From Camelus ferus (taxonomy: Eukaryota), in the NCBI RefSeq assembly GCF_009834535.1, contig NC_045696.1:81470001-81534000 (forward strand): a DNA stretch of 64,000 nucleotides. The letters are read 5' to 3'. Positions within the stretch are counted from its first letter, which is position 1, and each line of letters starts with the position of its first letter. The position numbers were made by a program, and so were the translations under genes. The notes under the pieces are model-generated. The model worked only from the letters and a program-made list of their open reading frames with translations, had not been told where the DNA came from and searched no databases. This document shows positions 10,964-64,000 of the stretch, in pieces.

Positions 10964-12897
<1,934 letters not shown>

Positions 12898-13195
12898 TGA
12901 CGCCCGCGCCGCAGGCGCCGTGTGCGGTTGTCGCCTCACCTTCCGGGCGTCCCCGGGGGATGAGAGCAGACCTGTGCCTCCGTAATTTGGTCATTTGGCA
13001 GCCCCTGTTTTTCTGCTGTTTACAACATCACCAGTGCCACGTCCCTAGCGTTAGAGAAAATGCCTAAAGATATTTCAAGCTCATGTCATTATGACATTTC
13101 TTAAAACTTTATTAAAAAAGAACGAGTGAAGTATTGCTGAAATGTGGAAATTTGGTTGGGTACCATGCTTTTTCTCGCCTTCACGTTTGCAGTTG

Positions 13196-38322: not shown

Positions 38323-38487
38323 ATGGCGGATGAAATTGATTTTACTACTGGAGATGCTGGGGCTTCCAGCACTTACCCTATGCAGTGTTCGGCCCTGCGC
38401 AAAAACGGCTTCGTGGTGCTCAAAGGACGACCATGCAAAATAGTGGATATGTCAACTTCGAAAACTGGAAAGCACGGTCATGCCAAG
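38323..38487 (+). CDS. EIF5A2: eIF5A-2 first coding exon ([27 protein letters not shown]...[12 protein letters not shown]), containing hypusine Lys50
   Basis: Kozak accATGg, hypusination motif [12 protein letters not shown], donor AAG|gtaaat. The exon probably begins at 38287 (catag|). Confidence 0.98.
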
Positions 38488-39034
38488 GTAAATGCCCTTC
38501 CAGGACTGTCTTGGCATTGGGATTTTGATCCTTTGCATTCCGTTACAGAACATGAGGTTTCTGTACTTACAACTGTATATAATAACACAATTTTTTCATC
38601 CCATAATTACTGGGTGATCAGCTGTTTGAATACTGAAAGGTAGCATTTCCCTCCTGGGCCCTTATGTTTCATTTACTAGGAACTGAAACTTTCCTGAATC
38701 CTAGTGATTTAGGCAATCTATTCATTTTACAAATGAGAAAACTTGTTCTAACATCATTCTAAGAAACCTAATTTCATTTTTCTTAAGCACTTTACGATTG
38801 AATTGAACTGTATATTGCTATTGGGTCTTGCTTGATATGTCACGATACTGTTTAGTTGTTCACTGCTTCTCAATTGTATGACCAGTACATTTTTTTTTTA
38901 AGAAAGTAAAATTAGATGACCTTGGAAGCAGAAAGAATCTGCCATAATCAGCGTTGGTATTGTGCTCTTGTGTATGTAATGAGTGATACCTTGGCAAAGA
39001 TTAAACAGGTTTCCTGTTCTCTCCTCTCTGTTAG

Positions 39035-39139
39035 GTTCACCTTGTTGGCATTGATATTTTCACGGGCAAAAAGTATGAAGATATTTGCCCTTCTACTCAC
39101 AACATGGATGTTCCAAATATTAAGAGAAATGATTATCAA
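39035..39139 (+). CDS. EIF5A2: eIF5A-2 coding exon 2 ([35 protein letters not shown])
   Basis: gttag|GTT ... CAA|gtaagt. 105 bp. Confidence 0.98.
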
Positions 39140-40229
39140 GTAAGTACTAATTTCTCCTTGTTTCTTAAAGGTGCAAATACCCTCTGCTCTCTATTGTAAT
39201 TTAATAACACCCACAAGTAGTTTTCTAGGTTTTTCTAACTATTAGCTACCACTTAGCTTAGAAATTGGAGAAATAGTGATATTGATATTTAACACTTGTG
39301 CCTTATCTAGGATGATTGCTAGTTTGCCACTTTTAACATTCTTGCATTTATAAAAATTTGAACACTTATTATTTCTCAGAACAAGTGACTCCATATTGTG
39401 AGTTTAATGTTTAGTTAAATTATTATTCCCTTTGTTGTAGATTATTTCAAGTTTAGATAACTCCTTCCCAGGTATTTCTTTTCCCTTACCAGACTTAAGA
39501 CTTTTAAGAACTTATTGGACTTCATGTTCCACCAGCAAGTTTTTGTATATTAATGTGTGTCAGAATTTGGTATTCTTAAATAGAATAAGTTGAAAGCCAT
39601 AAATACAAAGGATAAAGTATATGGTCACTGAGTATGGTAAAGAAAATAAAAAAACTTTGTAATTGTTTTATTTATATTCAGTGACCATGCTGTGACCTTT
39701 TGTTAAATTATAGGTATAAACTGCAAGTTTTAGTTCCAGTTACACAGTTGGATAAGTCATGTTTAATGATAGCATTTTGTTGTTTGGAGTGCTGATGGCA
39801 ACCAAACCATTGACCTCATAGGATGTGGGAGCTCAGATTAATCCTAACTAAAGTCTTCTTGAAAGTCTTCAATTTCTTTATCAAGCATACTGTCTATAGA
39901 ACTCTTTTCTATTCATTTTGCATAGTGAAAAATGCAAATGTGATTCCTGGATTTGTTTTACCCAATTTAAATTGATTACTTTCTATACTTTATATTGTGT
40001 TGTATAATTCTTTAAAAATGTTACCATTAACTGCAATTATCCAATGATTTCCTTTTACTTTTTGTCCACATGTAAACATATTTTACACAGTTTTAATCTA
40101 GTAAGCAGTTTTATATTTTCATTTTCCTACTTATCATAAACATTTTTAGGTTGCTTTGGAGTCTTTGTAGAAATGTGAATTGTCTTAGTATAATAATAGC
40201 AAGGTTTTGGAGGTGGGTTGTTTGCTTTT

Positions 40230-40365
40230 TTTTTAAGTAAGGCAGATCTGGGTTTGGATCTAGTTCTGCCACTTTCTAGCTGGGTGACCTTGGGCAAATT
40301 ATTCAACCTCTCTGAGCCTCAGTCTTCTCATCTACAAAGCAGGGATAATATGAGGATTAAGTGAA
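40230..40365 (+). mobile_element. MIR SINE
   Basis: ctgggtgaccttgggcaaattattcaacctctctgagcctcagtcttctcatct. Confidence 0.8.
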
Positions 40366-40822
40366 AAAATCTACCCTATAATTACCTCATAAGCAGATAT
40401 GTACCACAAAGTAGTTCTTTCCTGCTTCCCCTTTTCCAGTATGAAAATTCCACTTAATCATTCCATTATTCTTAGAGCACCCAATTTAGACATGGCATAC
40501 AGTGGGTGCTCAATAAACATTTGTTAAAGGCATACATGATTATTCGATGAGATAAAGATAGTGCAGCCAACTAAGGCTAAGTATAGAATTTCTCCTTGCC
40601 AAAAGTGGATTTCTGTTTTCATACTAACATGTGAATGCTTTGAATATTCACTGTTCATTAATATTCATTCAATATACAATGCTTTTGCCTTTGACTATTT
40701 CAGAAAGATGGTATCAGTAGTTCAGATAACTACTATGATCAAATTAGCCTATCATTGATTGGAGCTCAAGATTTAACATAAAAAATAAATTTGGTTTTGG
40801 TTTTGTTTTGGGATATAGCAGA

Positions 40823-41122
40823 GCCTAGGCTAGGGTGAGGGGGATGACATGAGTGAAGCCCTTGCCTCAAGCACAAAATTTTAAATAAAGACAGGACCAG
40901 TAACAATGGCAAGCCACACGGAGGCCTAAGTCAAAAGGAAAAATCAGTAATTCTGATCCTGTCTTTATTTAAAATGTTGATACTTTGTTCACCATAGAAT
41001 TTTTGCATTAATTCTAATTTTAAAACTTGATCACTTTGGGGGGGGGGGTGCGCACGTGCACGTGCCATCTTAAGTTTTGCACCCAAAATGAGTCCTCACT
41101 TGCCTCACCCTAGTCCCAGCCT
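40823..41122. mobile_element. MER96B-like hAT element
   Basis: Inverted termini ggctagggtgagg / cctcaccctagtcc. Confidence 0.65.
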
Positions 41123-42209
41123 TGGTGTGTAGTCTGTGTTGCAGAGTGGATAAGACAGTGACTCAAGCAGGACAGCCTGGGCCCACATCCTTGCTTTGGC
41201 ACTTACTAATTGCGTGACTTCTGCTGGCAAGTCAGTTAACCTCTCACCTGCCTTTATTTATAAAATAGGGATAAGAATGATAAACTTATCATGGAATCAT
41301 TGTGAGGTTTAATTAGTCAATTCTTAGAACAGGATTTGCATAGTAGGTACTCAGTGATCACATCCCTTTATTATCAAGTCACCATAGAATACTTATTTCT
41401 GTTCATTTAAAAAATTAGTTCTATGAACCTTTCTGGTTATATTTATTGTGCTATGGTGGTCTTCACTCACCTATCCAAGTGGCTTGATTAAATTCCTACT
41501 TATTATTTGGCTACATGTAGTCCTTTGTATTTGTACACACATATATATATGTTCATTATAATAATTAAAAAGTAAGTCTTTGTTTAGGGGAAGAAACATA
41601 TTAATATTTACAGTTTTAACTTTATGTGTTTTAAAATGAGTTCAGAATGAAAGAAAATTGTCTCCTGAATTCCACCCCAAGATATTGGATTAGAATTGCT
41701 CATTTCCATCATTTCTCCCAAAAGTAGTGATTGTTGTCTGAGGCTCAGTGATCATGTAAAATACAAATGCACCCAAACACCTTTGGGAATCCCCAGACTC
41801 TTAAATATAGACATGCTTGTTCAAACTCTGGTACTCACTTGAATCATATTTCCTTAGAAAGTTCTGTGTTCATGTGCACCACAACCCAAGTTAAATGCCT
41901 TTTCTGTATTTACAAAGTTCTATCTGTCATTTAAAGACCATTTTTTCAGAAGGAAATCCTACCAGTACAAGACATGTTTAAGTATATATCGTGGATCTTT
42001 GGTGAATTGCCAGAACTATGAGTATTAAATCCTAGTATATTCTTCAAATAAGTGATATGCCTTTCAGATATGGAGTTGAATTTTGTTGTTGCAACTTAAA
42101 ATAGAACAACAAAGAAATTAATGATGCTCTGAATTATTTGTGCCTAAAGTCTTTTTATAATTTTTACCTGTTCTGTGGAATCTTTGTGTTCCCTGATAGA
42201 AGCAGTCTT

Positions 42210-43600
42210 TCTTTAGGAATAGAAAACCTCTAAATCAGCAGATCCCAGCATAGCAGGGACAAGAAACAAATACTTGCTACAGTATCATTAAGAGTAATAG
42301 GGAGAAAAGCCTCCTACCTTTGGTTCCTAGACCCGTGTATTCTACCTATGGGAGAAATAGTACCATTTTTGGAATGTATTGTAACCTGTGAAACAGCACC
42401 CAGGTCCATATAATATCATCCAGCAGGTGGCAAAGATGAGTCTTCTTTAGGCCAGTCCACACAGGCAAGCTGTTTTAGAATGATGGAGTACAATAGACCA
42501 GTGAATTCTCTGAGTGTTGTCCTGTTATCTTTTTATTTTGCCTGTCAAATGAATTTTTTAGCCAGAGATGATACTATGTGAGGTACTGACGGGAATGCGA
42601 CATTCTATAAATCTGCAGATGAGATTTTAGCAGAAGCACTGCAGGCATCGAAGGCAAATTTACATGCAGAGTAAAGATCTATTGCAGTGAGCACAAACTG
42701 CCACCTCTTCCGTCATGGAAGGAGTACAGTATTACCAGGCAGCTGGCTGTTCCCTCTGGGGAATGGTGCCATATCAAGGACTCTGTACTGTGAGGTACTC
42801 AGTAATGGCTGTAGTCAGATCAGCCTTGGTGAGAAAAAACCTGTGTCATTGAGCCCTGCCACCATGGCCAGGAGTTCCATGAGCCAGTTGAGCAAGGACT
42901 GGGATGACTACAAAAAGAAGTTAAATGACATTCACAGACAGAATCATCTTGTCCACCTAATTGTCCACCTCCTCTGTAGTGCGTCCCTTTGGTAAGCATT
43001 CATATGAACACATTCTCTAACTTTCTGGAGAGATCCCTCCACATACCACTTCCCCAGACCTTACTGTCAGCAATTTTCCTATCTTGTTCTTTCAGTGTTG
43101 TTGACCTTCCATCCAGACTCATAGCCATTGCCCACAATCAGTGTAAATCCAAACCTCTGGTTCTCTCTTCTTTCAAATCCAGTATATGAAGTTCTTCTCA
43201 CCCCCACTATCTTTCAGGGTCACCTCTGAATAGTTTCATCAGACCATTCATAACCACCTAGAGACCAATCCTAGTTTTTTTCTTTTTCAGTCATCTGGTC
43301 ATAGGCAACTCCCCAGAAAGCCACTGGTATGAGCTGAGGGAGAAGCTGTTAATACTGCAGAAGAAGGTCCTTTATGAGTCTGAGCTACTTCTCATACAAC
43401 TTGTTTATGCCTTTCGGATCTGCTTAGGTTGACCTCCTGTATGCTATTCCAGCTTGATGATGGAGTGCTGCCGTGCATACTCACCTTCATGGCTTGGTGG
43501 GTCAGATAACACTCCAGCTGATGATAGTGTTATTTGCTTGAGTTGTATGGTAACAATGATCAAGCATTCAGTCTCTCCCAGGGACCAGCAGCTCTAAGGA
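42210..43600 (-). mobile_element. Degenerate ERVL/MaLR internal sequence
   Basis: Style and motifs (catcttgtccacct, ccccactatctttcagggtcacc) resemble antisense ERVL pol remnants. No intact ORF. Confidence 0.5.
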
Positions 43601-43984
43601 AGTAGCTTGAGAGTGCTAGGGGGAGAGGAAACAGAGAAGGAGAAGGGAGGAGGTCTTACCTAAAAGTCTATCTGTTTTGGAATAGATTGAGAAATAAAAT
43701 AAAATTAAATTCAGAAATTAGGGCTAAGAAGGCACCTGCAGTGATGCTATGCCATCTCCAGCCTCCTGCTGTTGTATATCAATAATACAAATACAGGCAA
43801 AAATGTTCTCCATAATTCTCCTTTTTTCAGTGTTCGTGCTTATTCTGACCACATCATGGACAGAATCTGCAGTTACTAGCTCTTCTCCATCTTTCCTTTC
43901 AGTTCATGCTTTTCTTCCTCAGTTCCCTGTGTCTCCAGCAATTTAGTGGCTACACTGCTCTTTCTAGAATTCTGATATACATTT

Positions 43985-46410
43985 TTTTTTTTTACTTTTT
44001 ATTGTGGACATTTTCAAAATATGATGAACTTCATGTACCCATCAGCCAGCTTCAACAATTATCATTACATAGTCAATCTTGTTTCATCTGTATCCCACCA
44101 CCTGCTTTATTTCCTGTACACTCTACCTGATTATTTTGAAGCTAATCCCACATATTATATCATTTATCATTTCATCTGTAAATATTCTATTATGCATTTT
44201 TTAAAGATAAGGACTGTAAAAAACAAAATCAAAGCACACTGTGGCACCCTTACAATTAATAATTCCTTAATATTGTCAAATATCCAGTCAATATCTGCAT
44301 TTTCCTAATTGTCTTTGTTTTTTTACTTTTTTGGATGTGATAGTTACTTTTTTGTCTTATAGTATGTCTAAATCAGGTCCTAAATAAGGTCCACATGTTG
44401 AAATTGGTTGAGGTATCTCTTAAATCTGTTTTATAGGTTCTCCTCTCTCCTACATGCCCTGAGGTCCCTCTCTTCTCTCTTTCCTTCCTCCCTTCTCTCT
44501 CTCTCTCATTTTTTGATGAAGAAACTAGATCATTTGATCTGTAGACTTCCCCACAGTCTGTATTCTGCTAATTGCATTTCCTTGTTTAACATGTTCCTTT
44601 GTCCCATATATTTCCTGGATAATTGAAAATTAGATGTAGAGTCTTGATCAGATCCATTTTAGATTTCTATTTTCTTCCTCCTTTTTCTTCAAAGAACAAT
44701 TCCATAGGTGATGTTCTGTGCAACCATCAAGGTAGTTAAGTCTGATTTTTTGTGTGTGATGTTATTACATAGGTAATCATTGCCTCAATCCATGAATTTA
44801 TTAGGAGAGACAAAATAATAATTTTATTCTTTAAAAAAAAAAAGCCAGAACACTTCTATAAACTTTAGTTCATCAATTTTTTTGTTTACTTTGTGGTCCA
44901 GTATATAATAGGAAAGCCAATATAAATGCATGAGTTCCCCCTTTAATTAGTATTCAGAATTAGTTGTTTCTCTTGCATCTACTGAAGATGACCAATGAAA
45001 TTTTTTTTTCCACTTTGAATAGAAGCATTTAAACACATTTGTGTTTCAATCCATTGTAGTTATTATCCTTATCAATTCCCAAATTGTTCCATCTTTGGCA
45101 AGAGGGACCTTTTTCTGGTTAGCTCTTTGAGTTCCTTTGATACAGACCTAGTGGTCTTTGATAGCACCATGCATTCTCATCTTGTATACTTATCCTGGAC
45201 CTGGAAGTATGTGTTTTTCCAAGGAGCCCTATGGAGAGAAATAGCACCGTACACTGGATTCTTTTAGTAGGATATAATAGATACCACATTCTGATACTGG
45301 TATTTGGGGGTATGGTATAACTTCATATGTCATTCAGCAGGTTGGTACACCACTGCTTGCCAGACTCCTATATTACAAGTTTTCTGACCCTGCCCTCTCC
45401 TGTTTCCTTGCTTGCTATTAACAAAATGATTGTTCTCACTACCAAAAAAAAAAAAAGTCATAAACACCTCAAAGTTATCAATTGAGTAGATTTGTTTAAA
45501 GGTGAAGGATCAGAAGGAATATTTAGAATTGACATATAATTGTCTTCTTACCATCCTCTCCTTCTAACTCTATAGAATCAGAGAGGGCTTTGAGGGGAAA
45601 TAGAAAAAGTTGCCCAGAAATATGCTTGGAACTCAGCAACCATTAGCTTTTTTTTTTTTTTCAAGATTGAAAATTATAAAAGGGAAAATGGTACCATGAG
45701 AGTAGAAAAAGCTGGCAGATAACTATCTTAGCCAAGTGAGCACAGCTAATATCACCAGTAATGGGACAAACTGACATCATTTGGCCTCCTGGTGTGATAC
45801 TCTGAGGACACATCATTTATGTAGTAATCCTTCCAAAAATGCATTACCTGAATCATTAAGAAACAGATAAACTCAAACTGAGGAACTTTCTATAATACAG
45901 TGAGCCTGTGCTCGTCAAAAAATGTCAATGTCATGAAAGACAAAGGATCAGGAACTGTTTCAAATTAAAAGAGACTAAACTGACATGACAGCCAAATAAA
46001 TACAAGTCATGATCCTGGAGTTGAGAGGGAAAAGTTGCTATTAAATACAATATTGGGACAATTGGCAAATTTGAATACGGACTATATGTTGAATAATATG
46101 CTCACAATATTGAATTTCCTGATTTTGAAAAATAAACCGTGGTTATATAAGAGTCTGTCCTTGTTCTTGGAAAAACACACTGAGGTATTATTGCTAAAGA
46201 GTCATAATGGTTGAAACTTACTCTCAAATGATTCAGTAAAAATAAGAAAAGAATAAGAATATGTACGGTATACAATTTATATATTCCATATATACAGAGA
46301 GAGAAAAAGTGCACATGTGGTTAAATGTTAACGAAGTGTAAATCTAGGTAAAAGATAAGGGATTTCATTGCATTATTTGTGCAACTTTTCTCTATATCTG
46401 AACTTTTTTT
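43985..46410. mobile_element. L1MC-type 3' fragments in both orientations
   Basis: cccatcagccagcttcaacaattatca; aatatcaccagtaatgggacaaactgacatcat; attgggacaattggcaaatttgaat. Confidence 0.6.
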
Positions 46411-47103
46411 AATAATTTAGGTAAGATGAAATACTTCATTTTTATTATTTAATTTTATTTTTCTATAGCTTAGTTTTATTTCTGAAATTTTAAATTTTAT
46501 CTTATTGCAATTTATTTTCATAAGATGTATAATGTTTATACATTTTTTACTAGATGTTTGGTATTCTGGGTGATTGCTTTTTATAAAACCCATTAGAATT
46601 CTAGGCACACTGGTGGCATACATGCTTTTAGAATAAATGGATTTGGCCTGCCTATTTGCTTATACCTGTAATGAAAAAAATTTAATGATATCAAAACTAT
46701 GTGATGACTTTGTTTCATTAATGACATCAATAAGCTAGTGTTTGTCTTTTAAAAAAAATCTAATGTTGTTAGCAGTGAGCTGGAGACCTAAAATTTTCCA
46801 CTTCAGCTTGTTTCATAATCAAATTATAAAACACAGGTTTTTGTAATTGTGAAAAACTGAAAATAACTTTTATGCCCATTAGTGCGAAAATGGTTAACTC
46901 AGTTGCAGTATATCTATGCAGTTGTGAAGAGATTAAAGAGACTAAGGTTGGGCCACATTTTCCAATATGGAAAGATTTCTAAAACACACTAAGTGAAAAC
47001 AACTTGCTGAAAAATACAATATCTCATTTTTTTAAGCAACTGTATTTATATTGTGTCCATAAATATAAATGCTTCAGGATACACAATAAAAAAGCCTAAA
47101 CTA

Positions 47104-47283
47104 GGGGGGAGGGTACAGCTCAGTGGTAGAGTGTGTGCTTAGCATGCACGAGGTCCTGGGTTCAATCCCCAGTATCTCCATTAAAAATAAATAAATTAAA
47201 TAAAAACCTAGTTACCTCCCCCCAACAACAACAACAACAAAAAAGACTGATTCAAAAAATTTTAATAAATAAATTACTTTTTT
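47104..47283 (+). mobile_element. tRNA-derived SINE (camelid-type) with TSD
   Basis: A box cagctcagtgg, B box ggttcaatccc, A-rich tail. TSD aaagcctaaac at 47091-47101 and 47284-47294. Confidence 0.9.
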
Positions 47284-47529
47284 AAAGCCTAAACAGTTTA
47301 ATAATGCAGAGATTTGGGGGAAGGGAGAGTACAGGGAGGAATGAACTTACACTTTTTGTCTGTACCTATTTCATGCTTTTGTATGTTTACCATTCTCAAG
47401 CACCAAAAATTTCTTAATGTATTACTATGTTCTTGTACAAATTAATGTGGATTGCCACATAACTATGTAAATATTACAAAGGAGTAGATATAACCTAATT
47501 GATTCAAATGCTATAATTTCTTTCAATAG

Positions 47530-47661
47530 CTGATATGCATTCAGGATGGTTACCTTTCCCTGCTGACAGAAACTGGTGAAGTTCGTGAGGATCTTAAGCT
47601 GCCAGAAGGTGAACTAGGCAAAGAAATAGAAGGAAAATATAATGCAGGTGAAGATGTACAG
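47530..47661 (+). CDS. EIF5A2: eIF5A-2 coding exon 3 (LICIQDGYLSLLTETGEVREDLKLPEGELGKEIEGKYNAGEDVQ)
   Basis: aatag|CTG ... CAG|gtaaag. 132 bp. Confidence 0.98.
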
Positions 47662-48200
47662 GTAAAGACCTATGGGAATATTGCTTTTTTAAACCATTCT
47701 ATAAAAACTTTAAAAGCTATGTGAAATATAGCTTTTAAATACTGCTGAAATGTTGAAAATGATCTCTGGAAGGCAGTCTTCCCAGTATCCCCTTAGAGAC
47801 CCATTACCAAAGAGTCAAAGTTCATTTTTTGCTACATAGACAGTGTCAGCCCCAAACTTGTTTTGAAGGTCAGCGTGAACTGTTCTTAAGGGTAAGAAAG
47901 GATGCTATGAGAATACTAAAGAGTGAAGGTGATTACTCTAGTATTAAAACATTTATAGCTCTTATGTTCCCTGTTCCCTGGAAGTCTTAAAAACCACAAT
48001 TTGAGAAATTCTGCTTTAGAAAACTATAAAGAAAGTAAGTTATTTGGTCTTAGAACACCTCTTTCCAAAGTCAATATGTATAAAGTATCTACAAATATAT
48101 CCAGTGTACAATGAATTAAATATATCTTAGGTATATTTATGTATATTCTTATGTATGTAATGCCTTCTGAATAACTTTTGCCTGCATTTTCCCCTTCTAG

Positions 48201-48260
48201 GTATCTGTCATGTGTGCAATGAGTGAAGAATATGCTGTAGCCATAAAGCCCTGCAAATAA
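48201..48260 (+). CDS. EIF5A2: eIF5A-2 final coding exon (VSVMCAMSEEYAVAIKPCK*)
   Basis: ttctag|GTA. The exons sum to 462 nt (153 aa plus stop). The C-terminal IKPCK distinguishes eIF5A2 from eIF5A1. Confidence 0.98.
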   Translation, partial: VSVMCAMSEEYAVAIKPCK

Positions 48261-58867: not shown

Positions 58868-59832
58868 TTTTTTTTTATTGAGTTACAGTCATTTTACAAT
58901 GTTGTGTCAAATTCCAGTGTAGAGCACAATTTTTCAGTTATATATGAACATACATACATTCATTGTCACATTCTCTTTCACTGTGAGCCACCACAAGATC
59001 CTGTATATATTTTCCCTCTGCTACACAGTACAATCTTGTTTATCTGTTCTACATTTTGAAATCCCAATCTGTCCCTTCCTACCCTCTGTCCCCCTGGCAA
59101 CCACAAGTTTGTATTCTATGTCTATGTTTTGTATTTATGTTTTGCTTTTTTTTTTTTTTAGATTCTGCATATGAGTGATCTCATATGGTACTTTTCTTTT
59201 TCTTTCTGGCTTACTTCACTTAGAATGACATTCTCCAGGAGCATCCATGTTGCTGCAAATGGCGTTATGTTGTCGGGTTTTATGGCTGAATAGTATTCCA
59301 TTTTATAAATATACCACTTCTTCTTTATCCAGTCATCTGTTGATGGACATTTAGGCTGTTTCCATGTCTTGGCTATTGTAAATAATGCTGCTATGAACAT
59401 TGGGATGCAGGTGTCATTTTGAAGTAGGGTTCCTTCTGGATATATGCCCAGGAGCGGTATTCCTGGGTCATATGGTAAGTCTATTCCTAGTCTTTTGAGG
59501 AATCTCCATACTGTTTTCCACAGTGGCTGCACCAAACTGCATTCTCACCAGCAGCGTAGGAAGGTTCCCTTTTCTCCACAGCCTCTCCAGCATTTGTCAT
59601 TTGTGGACTTTTGAATGATGGCCATTCTGACTGGTGTGAGGTGATACCTCATCGTAGTTTTGATTTGCATTTCTCTGATAATTAGTGATATTGAGCATTT
59701 TTTCATGTGCCTATCGATCATTTGTATTTCTTCTTTGGAGAATGGCTTGTTTAGGTCTTCTGCCCATTTTTGCAAATGAAACTGACAAAGGCTTGATCTC
59801 CAGAATATATAAGCAGCTCATACGACTTAATA
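58868..59832 (-). mobile_element. Young L1 3' end with an inverted 5' segment
   Basis: Minus-strand ORFs 59545-59775 and 59158-59535 encode the L1 ORF2 C-terminus. 59771-59832 is L1 in the opposite orientation. Direct repeat ggcttttta at 58848 and 59834. Confidence 0.9.
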
Positions 59833-60291
59833 TGGCTTTTTAGATTGATTTTCATTCATCGTGGCTTGTTTTCCTGTGTATTTATTGAGTTTTTTTTTTT
59901 TTTTAATTGTCAGCTCATATTTCAGAAAGCTTATCTCAGGGAATCCTTTGTGCTTGGATATACCGTGCATTCCTCCAGAAAAAATGTGCATTTGCTTCTG
60001 CCTGGTACCATGAAGTCAAGCACACTTTTAAACTACGTTTTTAGGTTGGAGCTTTTTCATGCTATTTGAGCAGAGCTAATTCTAGCCATAAACTGGTATG
60101 AGCATGGGGACAGGTCATTTCCATCCCCCTCCAAAAATTATTTTACTTTTTCACCAACTTAACCATACATTAGAAATTATTGATAAAACTATATTTTAGC
60201 CAGTTTTTTGGCTACATATGGAAGGTTTCTCTGTTAACCTAATCTGCCATATTGTGTCCTTCTATACCTTATTTCACTACTCTATTCAGAC

Positions 60292-60485
60292 CTGGTGTAC
60301 AGCACAATTTTTCAGCCATACATGAATACACATATATTCACTTTCATATTCTTTTTCACCATGAGCTACTACAAGATCTTGAATATATTCCCCTGTGCCA
60401 TACAGTGTAAACTTGTTTATCTATTCTATATATACCTGTCAGTATCTACAAATTTCGAACTTCCAGTCCGTCCCTTCCCACCCTA
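60292..60485 (-). mobile_element. L1 3' UTR fragment
   Basis: Similar to 58915-59090: gcacaattttt...acaagatcttgaatatattccctgtgc. Confidence 0.75.
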
Positions 60486-61759
60486 TATAATATATACATA
60501 CTTATATACTGTTTGTGTTTGTGAAATTTGGAAGAATTTGGTTATTTACAATATTTAATCTCACTATCTGCACATTTCTGGGTACTATTTTTCTTTTTTT
60601 AAAGTGTTTTCTAATTAAAAGAAAAAAATTCTGTTATTAGAAAATTTTCTGTTAATAGAAACTGTTTTCTAACTAGTTATTTTGGGATTACTAGTTATTC
60701 AGAAACACGTGTTGTTTTCGCAAATATTAAGCCTTTGTAAAAATGGTTTAATAGTTCTTTAGGGTTTTTTTTGTTTTGTTTTGTTTTGTTTTTGTCATGA
60801 CATGGGGGACTGCCAAAACAAGAAAAATAATAAATGACTCAATTAATGGCTTATTTTCAAAATATCCACCAGTACAAGGATCATTTCTGCCCTACAGCCC
60901 AGGCCATCCTTGAGGAGAAAATGCCAATTGCTCTTCTTTTCCTTCAATTTTTGGAAAATAAATGAAATTCTAGTGGTTCTTGAGGCAAACAACCAAAAAA
61001 ATCTTGAAATGTATTTCTTCCAGGAACTCAACACCTCTAGTTAGACCATATACATTGCATGCTTCGTTAAAGCATAGTTGTTATTACTACTAATCACTAT
61101 CATAAGGGACATACACAATTGTCACTTTCTAGTGTCAACCTCCAAATTAACAACAAAAGCCCACCCCATCCTCTACCCCTGGCTCCCAGTGCAATAGTTT
61201 CTCCTCCACAAAAAAAAAAAAAAAAAAAATTGCAAAACGCTGAGAGACGTGCCACTTTTCTGAAATGACGTTAACTTGTAATCCTTCTAACTCCGAACAC
61301 TTTTTTCTTTTGCCACTGTCACCACCACATATTCATCCTTTGTACATTTTAGTAATTAGGTCTCAGCAAATGTTCGTTGAATGTTAACTGGGAGGCATTT
61401 TGAATGGAACTCAGGAGTCCTGGATTAATTCTAAGGTTCATAAAATAGAATATATTACACACAACGTGTGAACAAATGAGCACTATGTATTTTTCACTTA
61501 AAGGTCGTTTGCTTGTTTGTGGGTTTGGTTTTTATTATCCTCAAGAACCTAGTTTATTTTGGCTCCCGGAAAAACTAATTTCCGTCAACAGTCATTTAGA
61601 AAACAAGACTCATGGTCAAAACACAGAGAAATAACTTTTTAGCTGGAGGATTATAATTGCAGTATAAAACAAGAATCCCCAAAGCAACATGAAACATTGC
61701 CTTGCCTTGATTGGAAAGAAGATCCAGGTGATTAGCGAAAAAATGTTTCCAACATCCCT

Positions 61760-62520
61760 GGGGCGTGTACTTCTAGAGCGGCCTCCCAAGCAATCAGTCC
61801 TAGGGACCACTGTGGTCAACCGGCGCTTGTAGTCACCAGCGTGAAACTGAGTCATTTCAGCTCGCGCCGCAAGTGGGCGCTGCCAGGAAGCCTGACGGCC
61901 TGTTGATTGTATTCTCCGCGGGCCACGCCCCCGGTTTCCTGGGTTACCGACCTCGGCGCTCCTCCCAAGTTCTCTTCCGGGAGGCGGTGATCTTACGTTC
62001 CCGGCGCGTGACGCACCACGCTTTGGTATAAATACGAGCGGCGCGGACGCTGCGTTCTCTCATCGCGCGGCCGGCTTTCCAAGATGGCGCCGGTGAGTGT
62101 GCGTGCTCTCCGCTGGACTATTTTACTCCGATATAGATGATTTTTGCAGCTCGCGAGTTGGGGGCGTCTCATTCAGATAAAGGGAGGGTGGGAATGGAGA
62201 CTCAGGTCAGGAATACAACCAAAATGTTAACGTTGTAGGCATTTTTGTGGCCCCTGGCAGCTGCCATGCGGTCTGGTGGAGTTCGACCTGGGCCCGGAGT
62301 TGGCTTAGGATGGGCGGCCGTGGGAGCGTGGGGAAGAAGGCACGACGGCGAACGGGGCTAGGGGACAGCATTTGGGCCGTTTCTTTTCTCTCGCGCGCGG
62401 ATGCTACCCTATTTGCAGCAGAAAGCCAAATGTGTCTAATCGGGCTAGTCTAATGGCCTTGCCAGGGCGGAGGCAGAGCCGAGGCTCTCGGCTCCCGCGA
62501 TAGCAGCGGTTACAGAAGTT
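61760..62520 (+). promoter_or_regulatory. RPL22L1: RPL22L1 CpG-island promoter: TATAAATA at 62027-62034, pyrimidine (TCT/TOP-like) start at about 62056, YY1 motif AAGATGGCG over the ATG
   Basis: Motifs read directly. The TATA-to-start spacing is about 30 bp. Confidence 0.85.
62084..62092 (+). CDS. RPL22L1: RPL22L1 exon 1 coding part (MAP)
   Basis: aagATGGCGCCG|gtgagt, in frame with the next exon. Confidence 0.92.
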
Positions 62521-63753
62521 TCAGAGAACTTTAAAACTGTGTTGGGGAAGAAGTTTCTTCATTACCTCGTGAAAGATAAAAGTGACGATTCTTAGGCAAA
62601 TTGTAAAAGAGTGTTTCAAAGGTTTTTATTAATAAGGGAACCAGTGAGATGTAAAAGCCGGCCCAGAAAACATTTGAAATGTTAGGGTAAAATTGCTGGG
62701 ATATATACAGAACTAATGTTCAATGGGACCATAAACACTCTGGGCTTATCTGTTCCACCAGACAAATTATTTGCGTTTCTTATGTTAACTAATGCCCCAA
62801 CAGAACTATAAATTGACCACTAAGGCCCAACTCCTAGTAACTAGTTAACCTAGTTTCCAGTCCCAGGTTTTGGATAAATTTTGGGGGCACAAGTTATTCC
62901 ACTGCCTAAGAAAGCCTCGGTAGCTGTTTGGGTGGATTTTACTTAAGTATTCTTATTCTATGGTATTGGTCTAAAAGGTTTGGGATTAGAAAACTTTAAG
63001 TTACACATATTTTTCAAATTAAAATTACTGTCAGACCTCTCCTGCCTTTCCCTCACCCATAGCAGCATAAGAAGTGAATTCTGTAGACATAAGTGGGTGA
63101 AATATCCTGTTCTGGCGTGTGATTGAGCTTGGACTAAGTGGTGCACTACCTGTTTCCCGTCTGCAGTGGGGATGGCAGTAGTGAAGCAGTTAAACAGTAC
63201 CTGGTAATTTAAAATTGAATATTCGTGGTATGGAAAATAATAAAAGCCCACAAAACTTTTCTTGATAACTCAAACACAGTGGGCCTGGTTAGAGGTTCAC
63301 ACCATCCCTGGTGGGTATTTTTTAGGTTTAACTTGTAGTAGAAAGTAGGCTGATCCTTTTAATCTTTTCCAGTTGCAAAAATAGGGTTTGGAGAATCTTC
63401 TGATGAAGGAAACTAAGTAGCTCACTATATACGTCGAACTTAATCTTGAGTTTTGTGCTTGTGAGACACTTGTATGACGAACAGGGAAAATTTCCATAGG
63501 AGTTCACGAAACTTGGTTTTTAACCAAGTTGATGAGAGTACTCCCCTTCAGACAGCCTGGTTGAAAAAAAGGGTATATCCAGTAGATACTAAAGCACTTT
63601 TTTTTTTTTAGAACCTTACACTACTTTATATATACAAACACACACACATCGCCTCACAACATGTTGTACATTATTGCACTGATACAGATTTTTTATTTTG
63701 TATGTAAAGTGAATAAATTATTGTAGAGAGTCATAATTATTAACTTTCTGTAG

Positions 63754-63846
63754 AAGAAAGACAAGAAGCCTAAGAAGTCAACCTGGAAGTTTAATTTGGA
63801 CCTTACTCATCCAGTAGAAGATGGAATTTTTGATTCTGGAAATTTT
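63754..63846 (+). CDS. RPL22L1: RPL22L1 exon 2 (KKDKKPKKSTWKFNLDLTHPVEDGIFDSGNF); the gene continues beyond the window
   Basis: ctgtag|AAG ... TTT|gtaagt. 93 bp. Contains the eL22 motif THPVEDGI with the paralog-type FDSGNF. Confidence 0.96.
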
Positions 63847-64000
63847 GTAAGTATCACTTCAGTCAGTTTGTTTTTATCATTATAGTAAAGTTCTTAATGA
63901 TGAATTAAGTATGTAATATTTGATTTTAACCTAAGCTCTATTCCTAGGGTACCTTCCCTAGTGAATATCTAGGGTTTTCTTCCCTAGTGTGGCACTTTTT

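What the first reader, a model, noticed from the sequence alone, without database searches (positions are those of the whole stretch)
63944..63989. Twin RPL22-consensus-like hairpins in RPL22L1 intron 2
Two adjacent stem-loops are seen directly: CTAGGG-tacctt-CCCTAG (63944-63961) and CTAGGG-ttttctt-CCCTAG (63969-63987). Each has a G-C closing pair and a 6-7 nt loop ending in U, which fits the described RPL22 (eL22) RNA-binding hairpin as in EBER1 and SELEX ligands. RPL22 is known to repress RPL22L1 post-transcriptionally, including through splicing. The stems sequester four CTAG potential 3' splice sites. They are therefore candidate cis-elements for the paralog cross-regulation switch (inference). 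A similar element may already be described in human.
Basis: partly seen in the sequence, partly recalled or inferred. Interest (0 to 1): 0.7.

Follow-up and report, generated by a model that had tools for sequence, protein, structure and literature searches.

The report
Known RPL22 splicing switch in RPL22L1
Two small hairpin-forming repeats in a mammal's ribosomal-protein gene RPL22L1 match a control element already described in humans, through which surplus RPL22 protein likely diverts its sister gene's message to a dead-end splice form, so the element is known and only the likely detail that one hairpin covers the normal branch point is added here.

Summary
The twin hairpins are real and at the stated coordinates. 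They lie in intron 2 of a non-human mammalian RPL22L1 gene. They correspond to the two RPL22-consensus stem-loops already reported in human RPL22L1 intron 2, where RPL22 promotes a frameshifting upstream acceptor (exon 3A) and, in one of two CLIP studies, binds at that site. The four CTAGs are not four hidden acceptors. The first (63946-47, 5' arm of hairpin 1) is the likely poison acceptor. The A of the fourth (63986, 3' arm of hairpin 2) and A63994 match two lariat-mapped human branch points that likely serve the normal acceptor. Most likely, RPL22 clamps hairpin 2, blocks the normal branch point, and splicing defaults to the poison acceptor and decay. The same arms can also fold into a rival long hairpin with a third consensus loop. 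Binding, isoform use and exon 3 in this species are untested; exon 3 lies beyond the window. The scan noted the same element earlier in three other genomes and in an overlapping window. Already known; interest 0.25.

The parts
62084..62092 (+). RPL22L1 coding exon 1 (three codons, M-A-P), followed by a GT donor
63754..63846 (+). RPL22L1 exon 2, 93 nt, ends in phase 0; GT donor of intron 2 at 63847
   Evidence: Pfam Ribosomal_L22e PF01776, E 0.0027, 18.4 bits, below the 23.6 cut-off on this 31-aa fragment; exon end matches a human RPL22L1 exon 2-3 junction primer by eye
63924..63934 (+). Candidate branch point(s) of the upstream poison acceptor (A63929 or A63934), predicted mostly or partly unpaired
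   Evidence: consensus match only; unpaired probability 0.91 and 0.49; no human lariat row found here in the two tables searched; inferred
63936..63947 (+). Pyrimidine tract and AG (63946-47) of the likely poison acceptor (start of exon 3A / RPL22L1b / variant 3)
   Evidence: gives a 101-nt intron (human 96) and an open frame; the only candidate AG that puts both human branch points on A; inferred by mapping
63939..63967 (+). Hairpin 1 with 5-bp basal extension: core stem 63944-61, G-C closure, 6-nt loop ending in U; its 5' side holds the poison pyrimidine tract and AG
   Evidence: -13.8 kcal/mol with extension, -9.3 without
63956..63974 (+). Rival middle hairpin from the inner arms: G-C closure, 7-nt loop ending in U; excludes hairpins 1 and 2
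   Evidence: predicted only: 0.001 of the free ensemble, 0.45 if 63939-43 is held single-stranded
63969..63987 (+). Hairpin 2: 6-bp stem, G-C closure, 7-nt loop ending in U; lies inside the poison exon extension
   Evidence: -8.4 kcal/mol; human isoform-specific primers cover its equivalent
63986..63986 (+). A in the 3' arm of hairpin 2, equivalent of human branch point chr3:170585952 (hg19), 29 nt before normal exon 3
   Evidence: PMC5959240 File S2 row, 4 lariats; mapping
63994..63994 (+). A 7 nt past the base of hairpin 2, equivalent of human branch point chr3:170585944 (hg19), 21 nt before normal exon 3
   Evidence: PMC4315302 Supplemental Data 2 row; mapping
63948..64000 (+). First 53 nt of the predicted 67-nt poison extension of exon 3, open for 17 codons to the window edge; normal exon 3 predicted to start at about 64015, outside the window
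   Evidence: inferred

Best explanation
The two hairpin-forming repeats lie in intron 2 of RPL22L1 and match the human RPL22-responsive stem-loops; free RPL22 likely binds hairpin 2, which would hold the normal branch point shut, so that splicing would shift to the upstream poison acceptor in hairpin 1 and the message would be degraded. Steps: (1) shown here: anatomy and consensus fit. (2) From papers, human: RPL22 is necessary and sufficient to raise the 67-nt-extended exon 3A form; one CLIP study puts RPL22 on this site; a translation inhibitor that blocks decay stabilises the form. (3) Inferred by mapping: the poison AG is in the 5' arm of hairpin 1; the two mapped branch points are in the 3' arm of hairpin 2 and 7 nt beyond it. 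(4) Inferred, untested: without RPL22, the stronger hairpin 1 hides the strong poison acceptor while U2 snRNP melts the weaker hairpin 2 and uses the weak normal acceptor; with RPL22 on hairpin 2, U2 instead takes the open upstream branch point. The result is negative feedback that keeps RPL22L1 low while RPL22 is in surplus.
For: Human element described: two stem-loops overlapping the variant-3 splice site with an RPL22 GoldCLIP peak; 'juxtaposed L22-binding consensus sites'; RPL22 gain raises and loss lowers exon 3A. Human intron 163 vs 96 nt, coordinates 170585990 / 170585923. Upstream site stronger than average, normal site weak. Two human isoform-specific primers together cover the equivalent of 63962-63994 with 30 of 33 bases identical and no gap (by eye); the differences are 1 in the loop of hairpin 2 and 2 past it, none in a stem. 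Branch-point rows both fall on A under 6 of 94 offsets tried, and only one of the 6 (63947) also ends in AG. Opening cost: upstream branch site 0.5-1.0 kcal/mol; normal branch sites 4.1 and 4.6; 10.1 for the 22 nt up to A63994. Mutating the same motif type in MDM4 intron 6 removes RPL22 control. Decay: anisomycin stabilises variant 3; an rpl22l1 decay-type transcript is one of the two most abundant in upf1-mutant zebrafish (which splice event was not seen).
Against: A second CLIP-seq study found no RPL22 peak in RPL22L1; the authors blame low mRNA. In the GoldCLIP study the RPL22 site on 28S rRNA lacks the small stem-loop, no binding was seen at SELEX-derived 28S sites, and the authors saw no such stem-loops under the MDM4 peaks, so the consensus is not the whole code. 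The poison AG is itself predicted to be paired (unpaired 0.001; 11.8-13.3 kcal/mol to open), and a binding bonus on hairpin 1 raises that to 16.2, the wrong direction, so hairpin 1 must be unwound or not bound. The rise in cost at hairpin 2 with a binding bonus (8.3 to 14.3) follows by construction. No hairpin mutagenesis of RPL22L1 was seen in the passages read. In yeast, Rpl22's inhibitory intron fold did not block branch-point recognition. One branch-point row rests on 4 lariats, does not name its base, and comes from a table cut when stored. No read-level or binding evidence for this species; the human sequence of hairpin 1's arms was not seen.
Confidence: 0.6

Rival explanations
1. Bistable four-arm switch: RPL22, or a factor binding the poison pyrimidine tract, flips the twin hairpins into one long hairpin whose central 7-nt loop is the true RPL22 site; this frees the poison pyrimidine tract while the outer stem still hides branch point A63986.
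For: Long form -18.6 vs twin form without extension -17.7 kcal/mol. With 63939-43 held single-stranded the split is 0.45: 0.55. The central loop meets the consensus and its 7 nt are identical in the human primer (by eye). Yeast RPL22 introns act as a two-state switch.
Against: Free ensemble gives the long form 0.001, and hairpin 1 forms first in every prefix from 63961 on. The poison AG stays paired in the long form (10.3 kcal/mol to open). A middle hairpin is an automatic by-product of duplicating a hairpin, and the linker's conservation is also explained by the 5-bp extension.
Confidence: 0.15
2. RPL22 bound to the loops acts as an enhancer at the start of exon 3A, recruiting SRSF4 or other splicing factors to the poison acceptor instead of blocking the normal one.
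For: Both loops lie within the first 40 nt of exon 3A by mapping; SRSF4 knockdown lowers variant 3; RPL22 peaks are enriched at splice junctions.
Against: Does not explain why a mapped branch point sits inside a stem; the poison site is already the stronger one; no RPL22-SRSF4 contact was seen in the passages read.
Confidence: 0.15
3. The hairpins only set the default by hiding AGs; RPL22 acts elsewhere, for example on an exon 2 hairpin that destabilises the mRNA, or indirectly through splicing factors.
For: All four AGs are predicted paired (unpaired 0.000-0.028); a zebrafish exon 2 hairpin binds Rpl22 and suffices for repression; one CLIP study saw no peak here.
Against: GoldCLIP peak on this site; an intronless RPL22L1 cDNA escapes repression by Pol I inhibition; no 6-bp consensus hairpin in this window's exon 2; loop-terminal U and G-C closure kept in hairpin 2 between human and this species.
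Confidence: 0.1

Closest known systems
Human RPL22L1 intron 2 stem-loops at the exon 3A / RPL22L1b / variant 3 acceptor (bioRxiv 10.1101/2023.12.29.573614 Fig 4E-F; bioRxiv 10.1101/2024.08.15.608201 Fig S6A, 7E; PMC12035866 Fig S6)
   Same: Same gene, intron, number of hairpins, consensus and position over the alternative acceptor; 30 of 33 bases identical where human primers allow comparison.
   Different: Another mammal; intron 5 nt longer before the poison acceptor (101 vs 96); 1 loop change in hairpin 2. The passages read do not place branch points in hairpin 2 or mention the rival middle hairpin; the figures themselves were not seen.
RPL22 consensus stem-loops in MDM4 intron 6 (bioRxiv 10.1101/2023.12.29.573614) and in EBER1 / SELEX ligands
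   Same: G-C closing pair, loop ending in U, clustered copies; RPL22 pushes splicing to an unproductive form.
   Different: In MDM4 three motifs follow a 5' splice site and cause exon skipping and were tested by mutation; here two overlap 3' splice signals and cause acceptor choice, untested by mutation in what was read.
Yeast RPL22A/B intron switch (PMC4838235 listing; PMC13630204 passages)
   Same: Rpl22 binds intronic structure to repress paralog expression through splicing.
   Different: Large alternative folds; splicing stalls after branch-point recognition; different intron architecture.
Zebrafish rpl22l1 exon 2 hairpin (PMC3750023)
   Same: Rpl22 binds a consensus hairpin in rpl22l1 RNA and represses it.
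   Different: Exonic, acts on mRNA abundance; not this element.

Membership tests
RPL22L1 gene (not RPL22) | eL22-family protein with RPL22L1 exon sequence | tested here: met
   PF01776 hit below cut-off on a 31-aa exon; exon 1-2 and exon 2 end match human RPL22L1 primers by eye; eIF5A-family gene upstream on the same strand, as for human EIF5A2-RPL22L1 (gene order recalled)
RPL22 consensus hairpin (EBER1/SELEX type) | Stem closed by G (5') - C (3') | tested here: met
   both hairpins; definition
RPL22 consensus hairpin (EBER1/SELEX type) | [quoted passage not shown] | tested here: met
   both hairpins
RPL22 consensus hairpin (EBER1/SELEX type) | Folds as predicted and binds RPL22 | not testable with these tools
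   predicted pair probability 0.99; human CLIP positive in one study, negative in another
RPL22L1 exon 3A poison switch | Alternative AG 67 nt before the normal exon 3 acceptor, overlapping the hairpins | tested here: inconclusive
   AG at 63946-47 fits by intron length, frame, primers and branch-point register; the normal acceptor (about 64014) is outside the window
RPL22L1 exon 3A poison switch | Sequence orthology to the human hairpins | tested here: met
   30 of 33 over 63962-63994 from primers (by eye); hairpin 1 arms not covered
RPL22L1 exon 3A poison switch | Frameshift with early stop in exon 3 and decay | tested here: inconclusive
   frame open for 17 codons to the window edge; the stop would lie beyond the window; human 63/64 aa
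RPL22L1 exon 3A poison switch | Isoform is made and responds to RPL22 in this species | not tested
   RNA runs holding the locus exist (6 of 24 rows) but no junction evidence was obtained
Rfam RNA family | Match at gathering score | tested here: not met
   1 hit in the window, a tRNA-like stretch at 47109-47180; none here

The most novel reading that the evidence does not exclude
The four arms form a two-state riboswitch-like device: RPL22 and the factors that read the poison pyrimidine tract toggle it between twin hairpins and one long hairpin with a third RPL22 loop, gating the normal branch point directly. If earlier scan notes on invertebrate RPL22 hold, it is an ancient self-limiting switch that RPL22L1 kept and RPL22 now uses to silence its paralog.
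Probability: 0.15. Interest if true: 0.55.

Novelty: already known. Interest (0 to 1): 0.25.

Why it matters
RPL22 loss is common in microsatellite-unstable cancers and makes cells depend on RPL22L1, so the element that couples the two is of medical interest. The element itself is in print. This report adds its conservation in another mammal and a base-level, testable layout: poison AG in hairpin 1, normal branch points in and beside hairpin 2. That would explain how a protein that binds hairpins can promote an acceptor lying inside one, and it predicts that an antisense oligonucleotide on hairpin 2 would mimic RPL22 and lower RPL22L1.

Tried and rejected
No genome is held for this window, so sequence past 64000 was not read. 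No read-level evidence on isoform use or variants was obtained, and no alignment of other mammals was made, so covariation is untested. Rfam: no family here. Other AGs as the poison acceptor (11 AGs listed): 63961 gives an immediate stop (34 aa, against 63/64 aa reported) and a 115-nt intron; 63972 closes after 4 codons; 63972 and 63987 lie under human isoform-specific primers, so they are exonic; 63935 stops after 3 codons and maps the branch points to G and C. 'Hiding AGs' as RPL22's action was rejected because the direction is wrong. Binding-bonus folding uses arbitrary energies and is only illustrative. The glioblastoma isoform paper (PMC10026424) is not held and is known only through citing papers. 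The BAG6 preprint has nothing on the intron. Literature searches for RPL22L1 with 'branch point' (2 papers), 'branchpoint' (3 papers), minigene/hairpin terms and stem-loop/reporter terms listed no paper that appears to place the branch point in the hairpin or to mutate the RPL22L1 hairpins; most were judged from listings only, the library lacks most subscription journals, and the journal versions of the two preprints were not read. Chance or strand-neutral palindromy alone was considered (both strands fold equally) and rejected because of the human match and functional data.

Full report
Observation. The two hairpins are present exactly as stated: arms 63944-49/63956-61 with a 6-nt loop and 63969-74/63982-87 with a 7-nt loop. 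Both close with G-C and both loops end in U. The arm pattern occurs 2 times in the window against 0.05 expected, 0 of 100 shuffles reaching 2 (pattern chosen after the fact). The last 101 nt fold at z -3.19 on the + strand and -3.35 on the - strand. A pattern-neutral scan for consensus hairpins with stems of 6 bp or more found 10 on + and 3 on -, with 3 of the 10 in this cluster. The two hairpins are a direct repeat (18 identities, 2 mismatches, 1 gap). Hairpin 1 extends by 5 bp (63939-43 with 63963-67), from -9.3 to -13.8 kcal/mol; hairpin 2 is -8.4.

Gene. A three-codon exon at 62084-92 and a 93-nt exon at 63754-63846 give 34 residues of an eL22-family protein (PF01776 at E 0.0027, below cut-off on this short piece). 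They match human RPL22L1 primers by eye, with differences, so this is a non-human mammal. An eIF5A-family gene lies upstream on the same strand; that EIF5A2 neighbours human RPL22L1 is recalled. Intron 2 starts at 63847 and runs off the window; no genome is held.

What is in print. bioRxiv 10.1101/2023.12.29.573614 (passages and section 8 read; figures not seen) marks L22-binding stem-loops in human L22L1 intron 2, calls them juxtaposed, and shows that L22 depletion lowers the alternative-acceptor form. bioRxiv 10.1101/2024.08.15.608201 (passages) reports two stem-loops overlapping the variant-3 splice site, an RPL22 but not RPL22L1 GoldCLIP peak there, complete dependence on RPL22, stabilisation by anisomycin, lower variant 3 on SRSF4 knockdown, and escape of an intronless cDNA from repression. 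PMC12035866 (passages; table headers) and its preprint (passages) show RPL22 gain and loss moving exon 3A and mention predicted hairpins, but their CLIP-seq found no peak in RPL22L1. PMC3750023 (passages) describes a different, exonic hairpin in zebrafish. PMC7354994 (passages) finds an rpl22l1 decay-type transcript strongly raised in upf1-mutant fish. The review PMC12110047 (passages) summarises these. Supplements of the bioRxiv preprints could not be seen, and they hold the hairpin drawings, so details claimed here as added may already be drawn there.

Which AG is used. In human the intron is 163 nt or 96 nt (PMC8395096 passage); the sites are 67 nt apart, the upstream one stronger than average and the normal one weak (PMC10325915 passage); the long exon starts at chr3:170585990 and the short at 170585923, hg19 minus strand (PMC11057873 supplement row). 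The product is 63 or 64 aa. Of the 11 AGs in the visible intron, 63946-47 gives a 101-nt intron and a frame open to the window edge; 63961 gives an immediate stop; 63972 stops after 4 codons; 63987 is open but gives 141 nt. Two published primers specific for the long form lie over the equivalent of 63962-63994, so 63972 and 63987 are inside the extension. Compared by eye, those primers match the window at 30 of 33 bases without gaps: one change in the loop of hairpin 2, two beyond it, none in a stem. The poison acceptor is therefore most likely the AG in the 5' arm of hairpin 1, and normal exon 3 should begin near 64015.

Branch points. Two human branch-point tables each hold one row in this intron: chr3:170585952 (PMC5959240 File S2, 4 lariats, base not named, file cut when stored) and chr3:170585944, an A (PMC4315302 Supplemental Data 2, 59,359 rows, complete). 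With the acceptor at 63947 and no indel they map to 63986 and 63994, both A. Of 94 offsets tried, 6 put both on A and only 63947 also ends in AG. A63986 is in the 3' arm of hairpin 2; A63994 is 7 nt past its base. They are 29 and 21 nt before normal exon 3 and lie downstream of the poison acceptor, so they can serve only the normal one. Neither table shows a row upstream of the poison acceptor; consensus-like As at 63929 and 63934 are the candidates and are cheap to open (0.5-1.0 kcal/mol).

Mechanism. The layout gives a simpler reading (inferred). Hairpin 1, the stronger, hides the strong poison acceptor by default. Hairpin 2, the weaker, covers the normal branch region, which U2 snRNP must open (4.1-4.6 kcal/mol for the pairing windows, 10.1 for the 22 nt up to A63994; that U2 proteins contact about 25 nt upstream of the branch A is established knowledge, recalled). 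Free RPL22 on hairpin 2 would block that step, and U2 would take the open upstream branch point, leading to the poison AG. In human the stop would then end 26 nt into the 122-nt normal exon 3, 96 nt before the next junction (arithmetic), which satisfies the usual 50-55 nt decay rule (recalled). The weak point is that the poison AG must be freed from hairpin 1 (11.8-13.3 kcal/mol), and RPL22 on hairpin 1 would make that harder (16.2 with an arbitrary 6 kcal/mol bonus). Confidence that this is the ortholog of the RPL22-responsive element is about 0.9; that branch-point blocking is the main action, about 0.6.

Rival fold. The inner arms can pair to give a middle hairpin that also meets the consensus, with the outer arms closing a long hairpin: -18.6 kcal/mol against -17.7 for the bare twin form and -22.2 with the extension. 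It holds 0.001 of the free ensemble, but 0.45 when the poison pyrimidine tract (63939-43) is held single-stranded. Such a fold is an automatic result of duplicating a hairpin, so it is a hypothesis, not a finding. Yeast RPL22 introns behave as a two-state switch, though there the inhibitory fold does not block branch-point recognition (PMC13630204 passages).

Earlier scan notes. Three follow-up reports describe a matching element in RPL22 of an octopus, an arthropod-like animal and an annelid, and an overlapping window flagged this same stretch. These are unchecked notes and were not tested here.

Verdict. Observation confirmed; interpretation partly supported; element already known from human. 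Interest 0.25. Nothing here shows binding or isoform use in this species.

Noticed in passing
window 10964-12900 (+): Intronless cullin-like copy broken by several frameshifts (Pfam Cullin E 4e-79, Cullin_Nedd8 E 4e-24), with a GC-rich 5' stretch; looks like a processed pseudogene, CUL2-like by recall.
   Followed up: partly
window 38326-48260 (+): Exons of an eIF5A-family gene (Pfam IF5A-like_N E 9e-26; further exon pieces near 39050 and 48225), likely EIF5A2, downstream of a GC-rich island at 36-38 kb.
   Followed up: partly
window 63751-63756 (+): Tandem acceptor (two AGs 3 nt apart) at the start of exon 2. The human table lists a 90-nt exon 2 against 93 nt here, which may explain why the poison product is given as 63 aa in one paper and 64 aa in another (inference).
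   Followed up: no
window 63902-63926 (+): An AU-rich 11-bp hairpin predicted just before the candidate upstream branch point; weak, significance untested.
   Followed up: no
window 47109-47180 (+): tRNA-like match (Rfam RF00005, 48.5 bits) inside the eIF5A-family gene; may be a tRNA-derived repeat.
   Followed up: no
window 58870-59780 and 60290-60490 (+): Two similar repeat-like stretches that look like LINE-1 3' ends (by eye, recalled; not tested).
   Followed up: no
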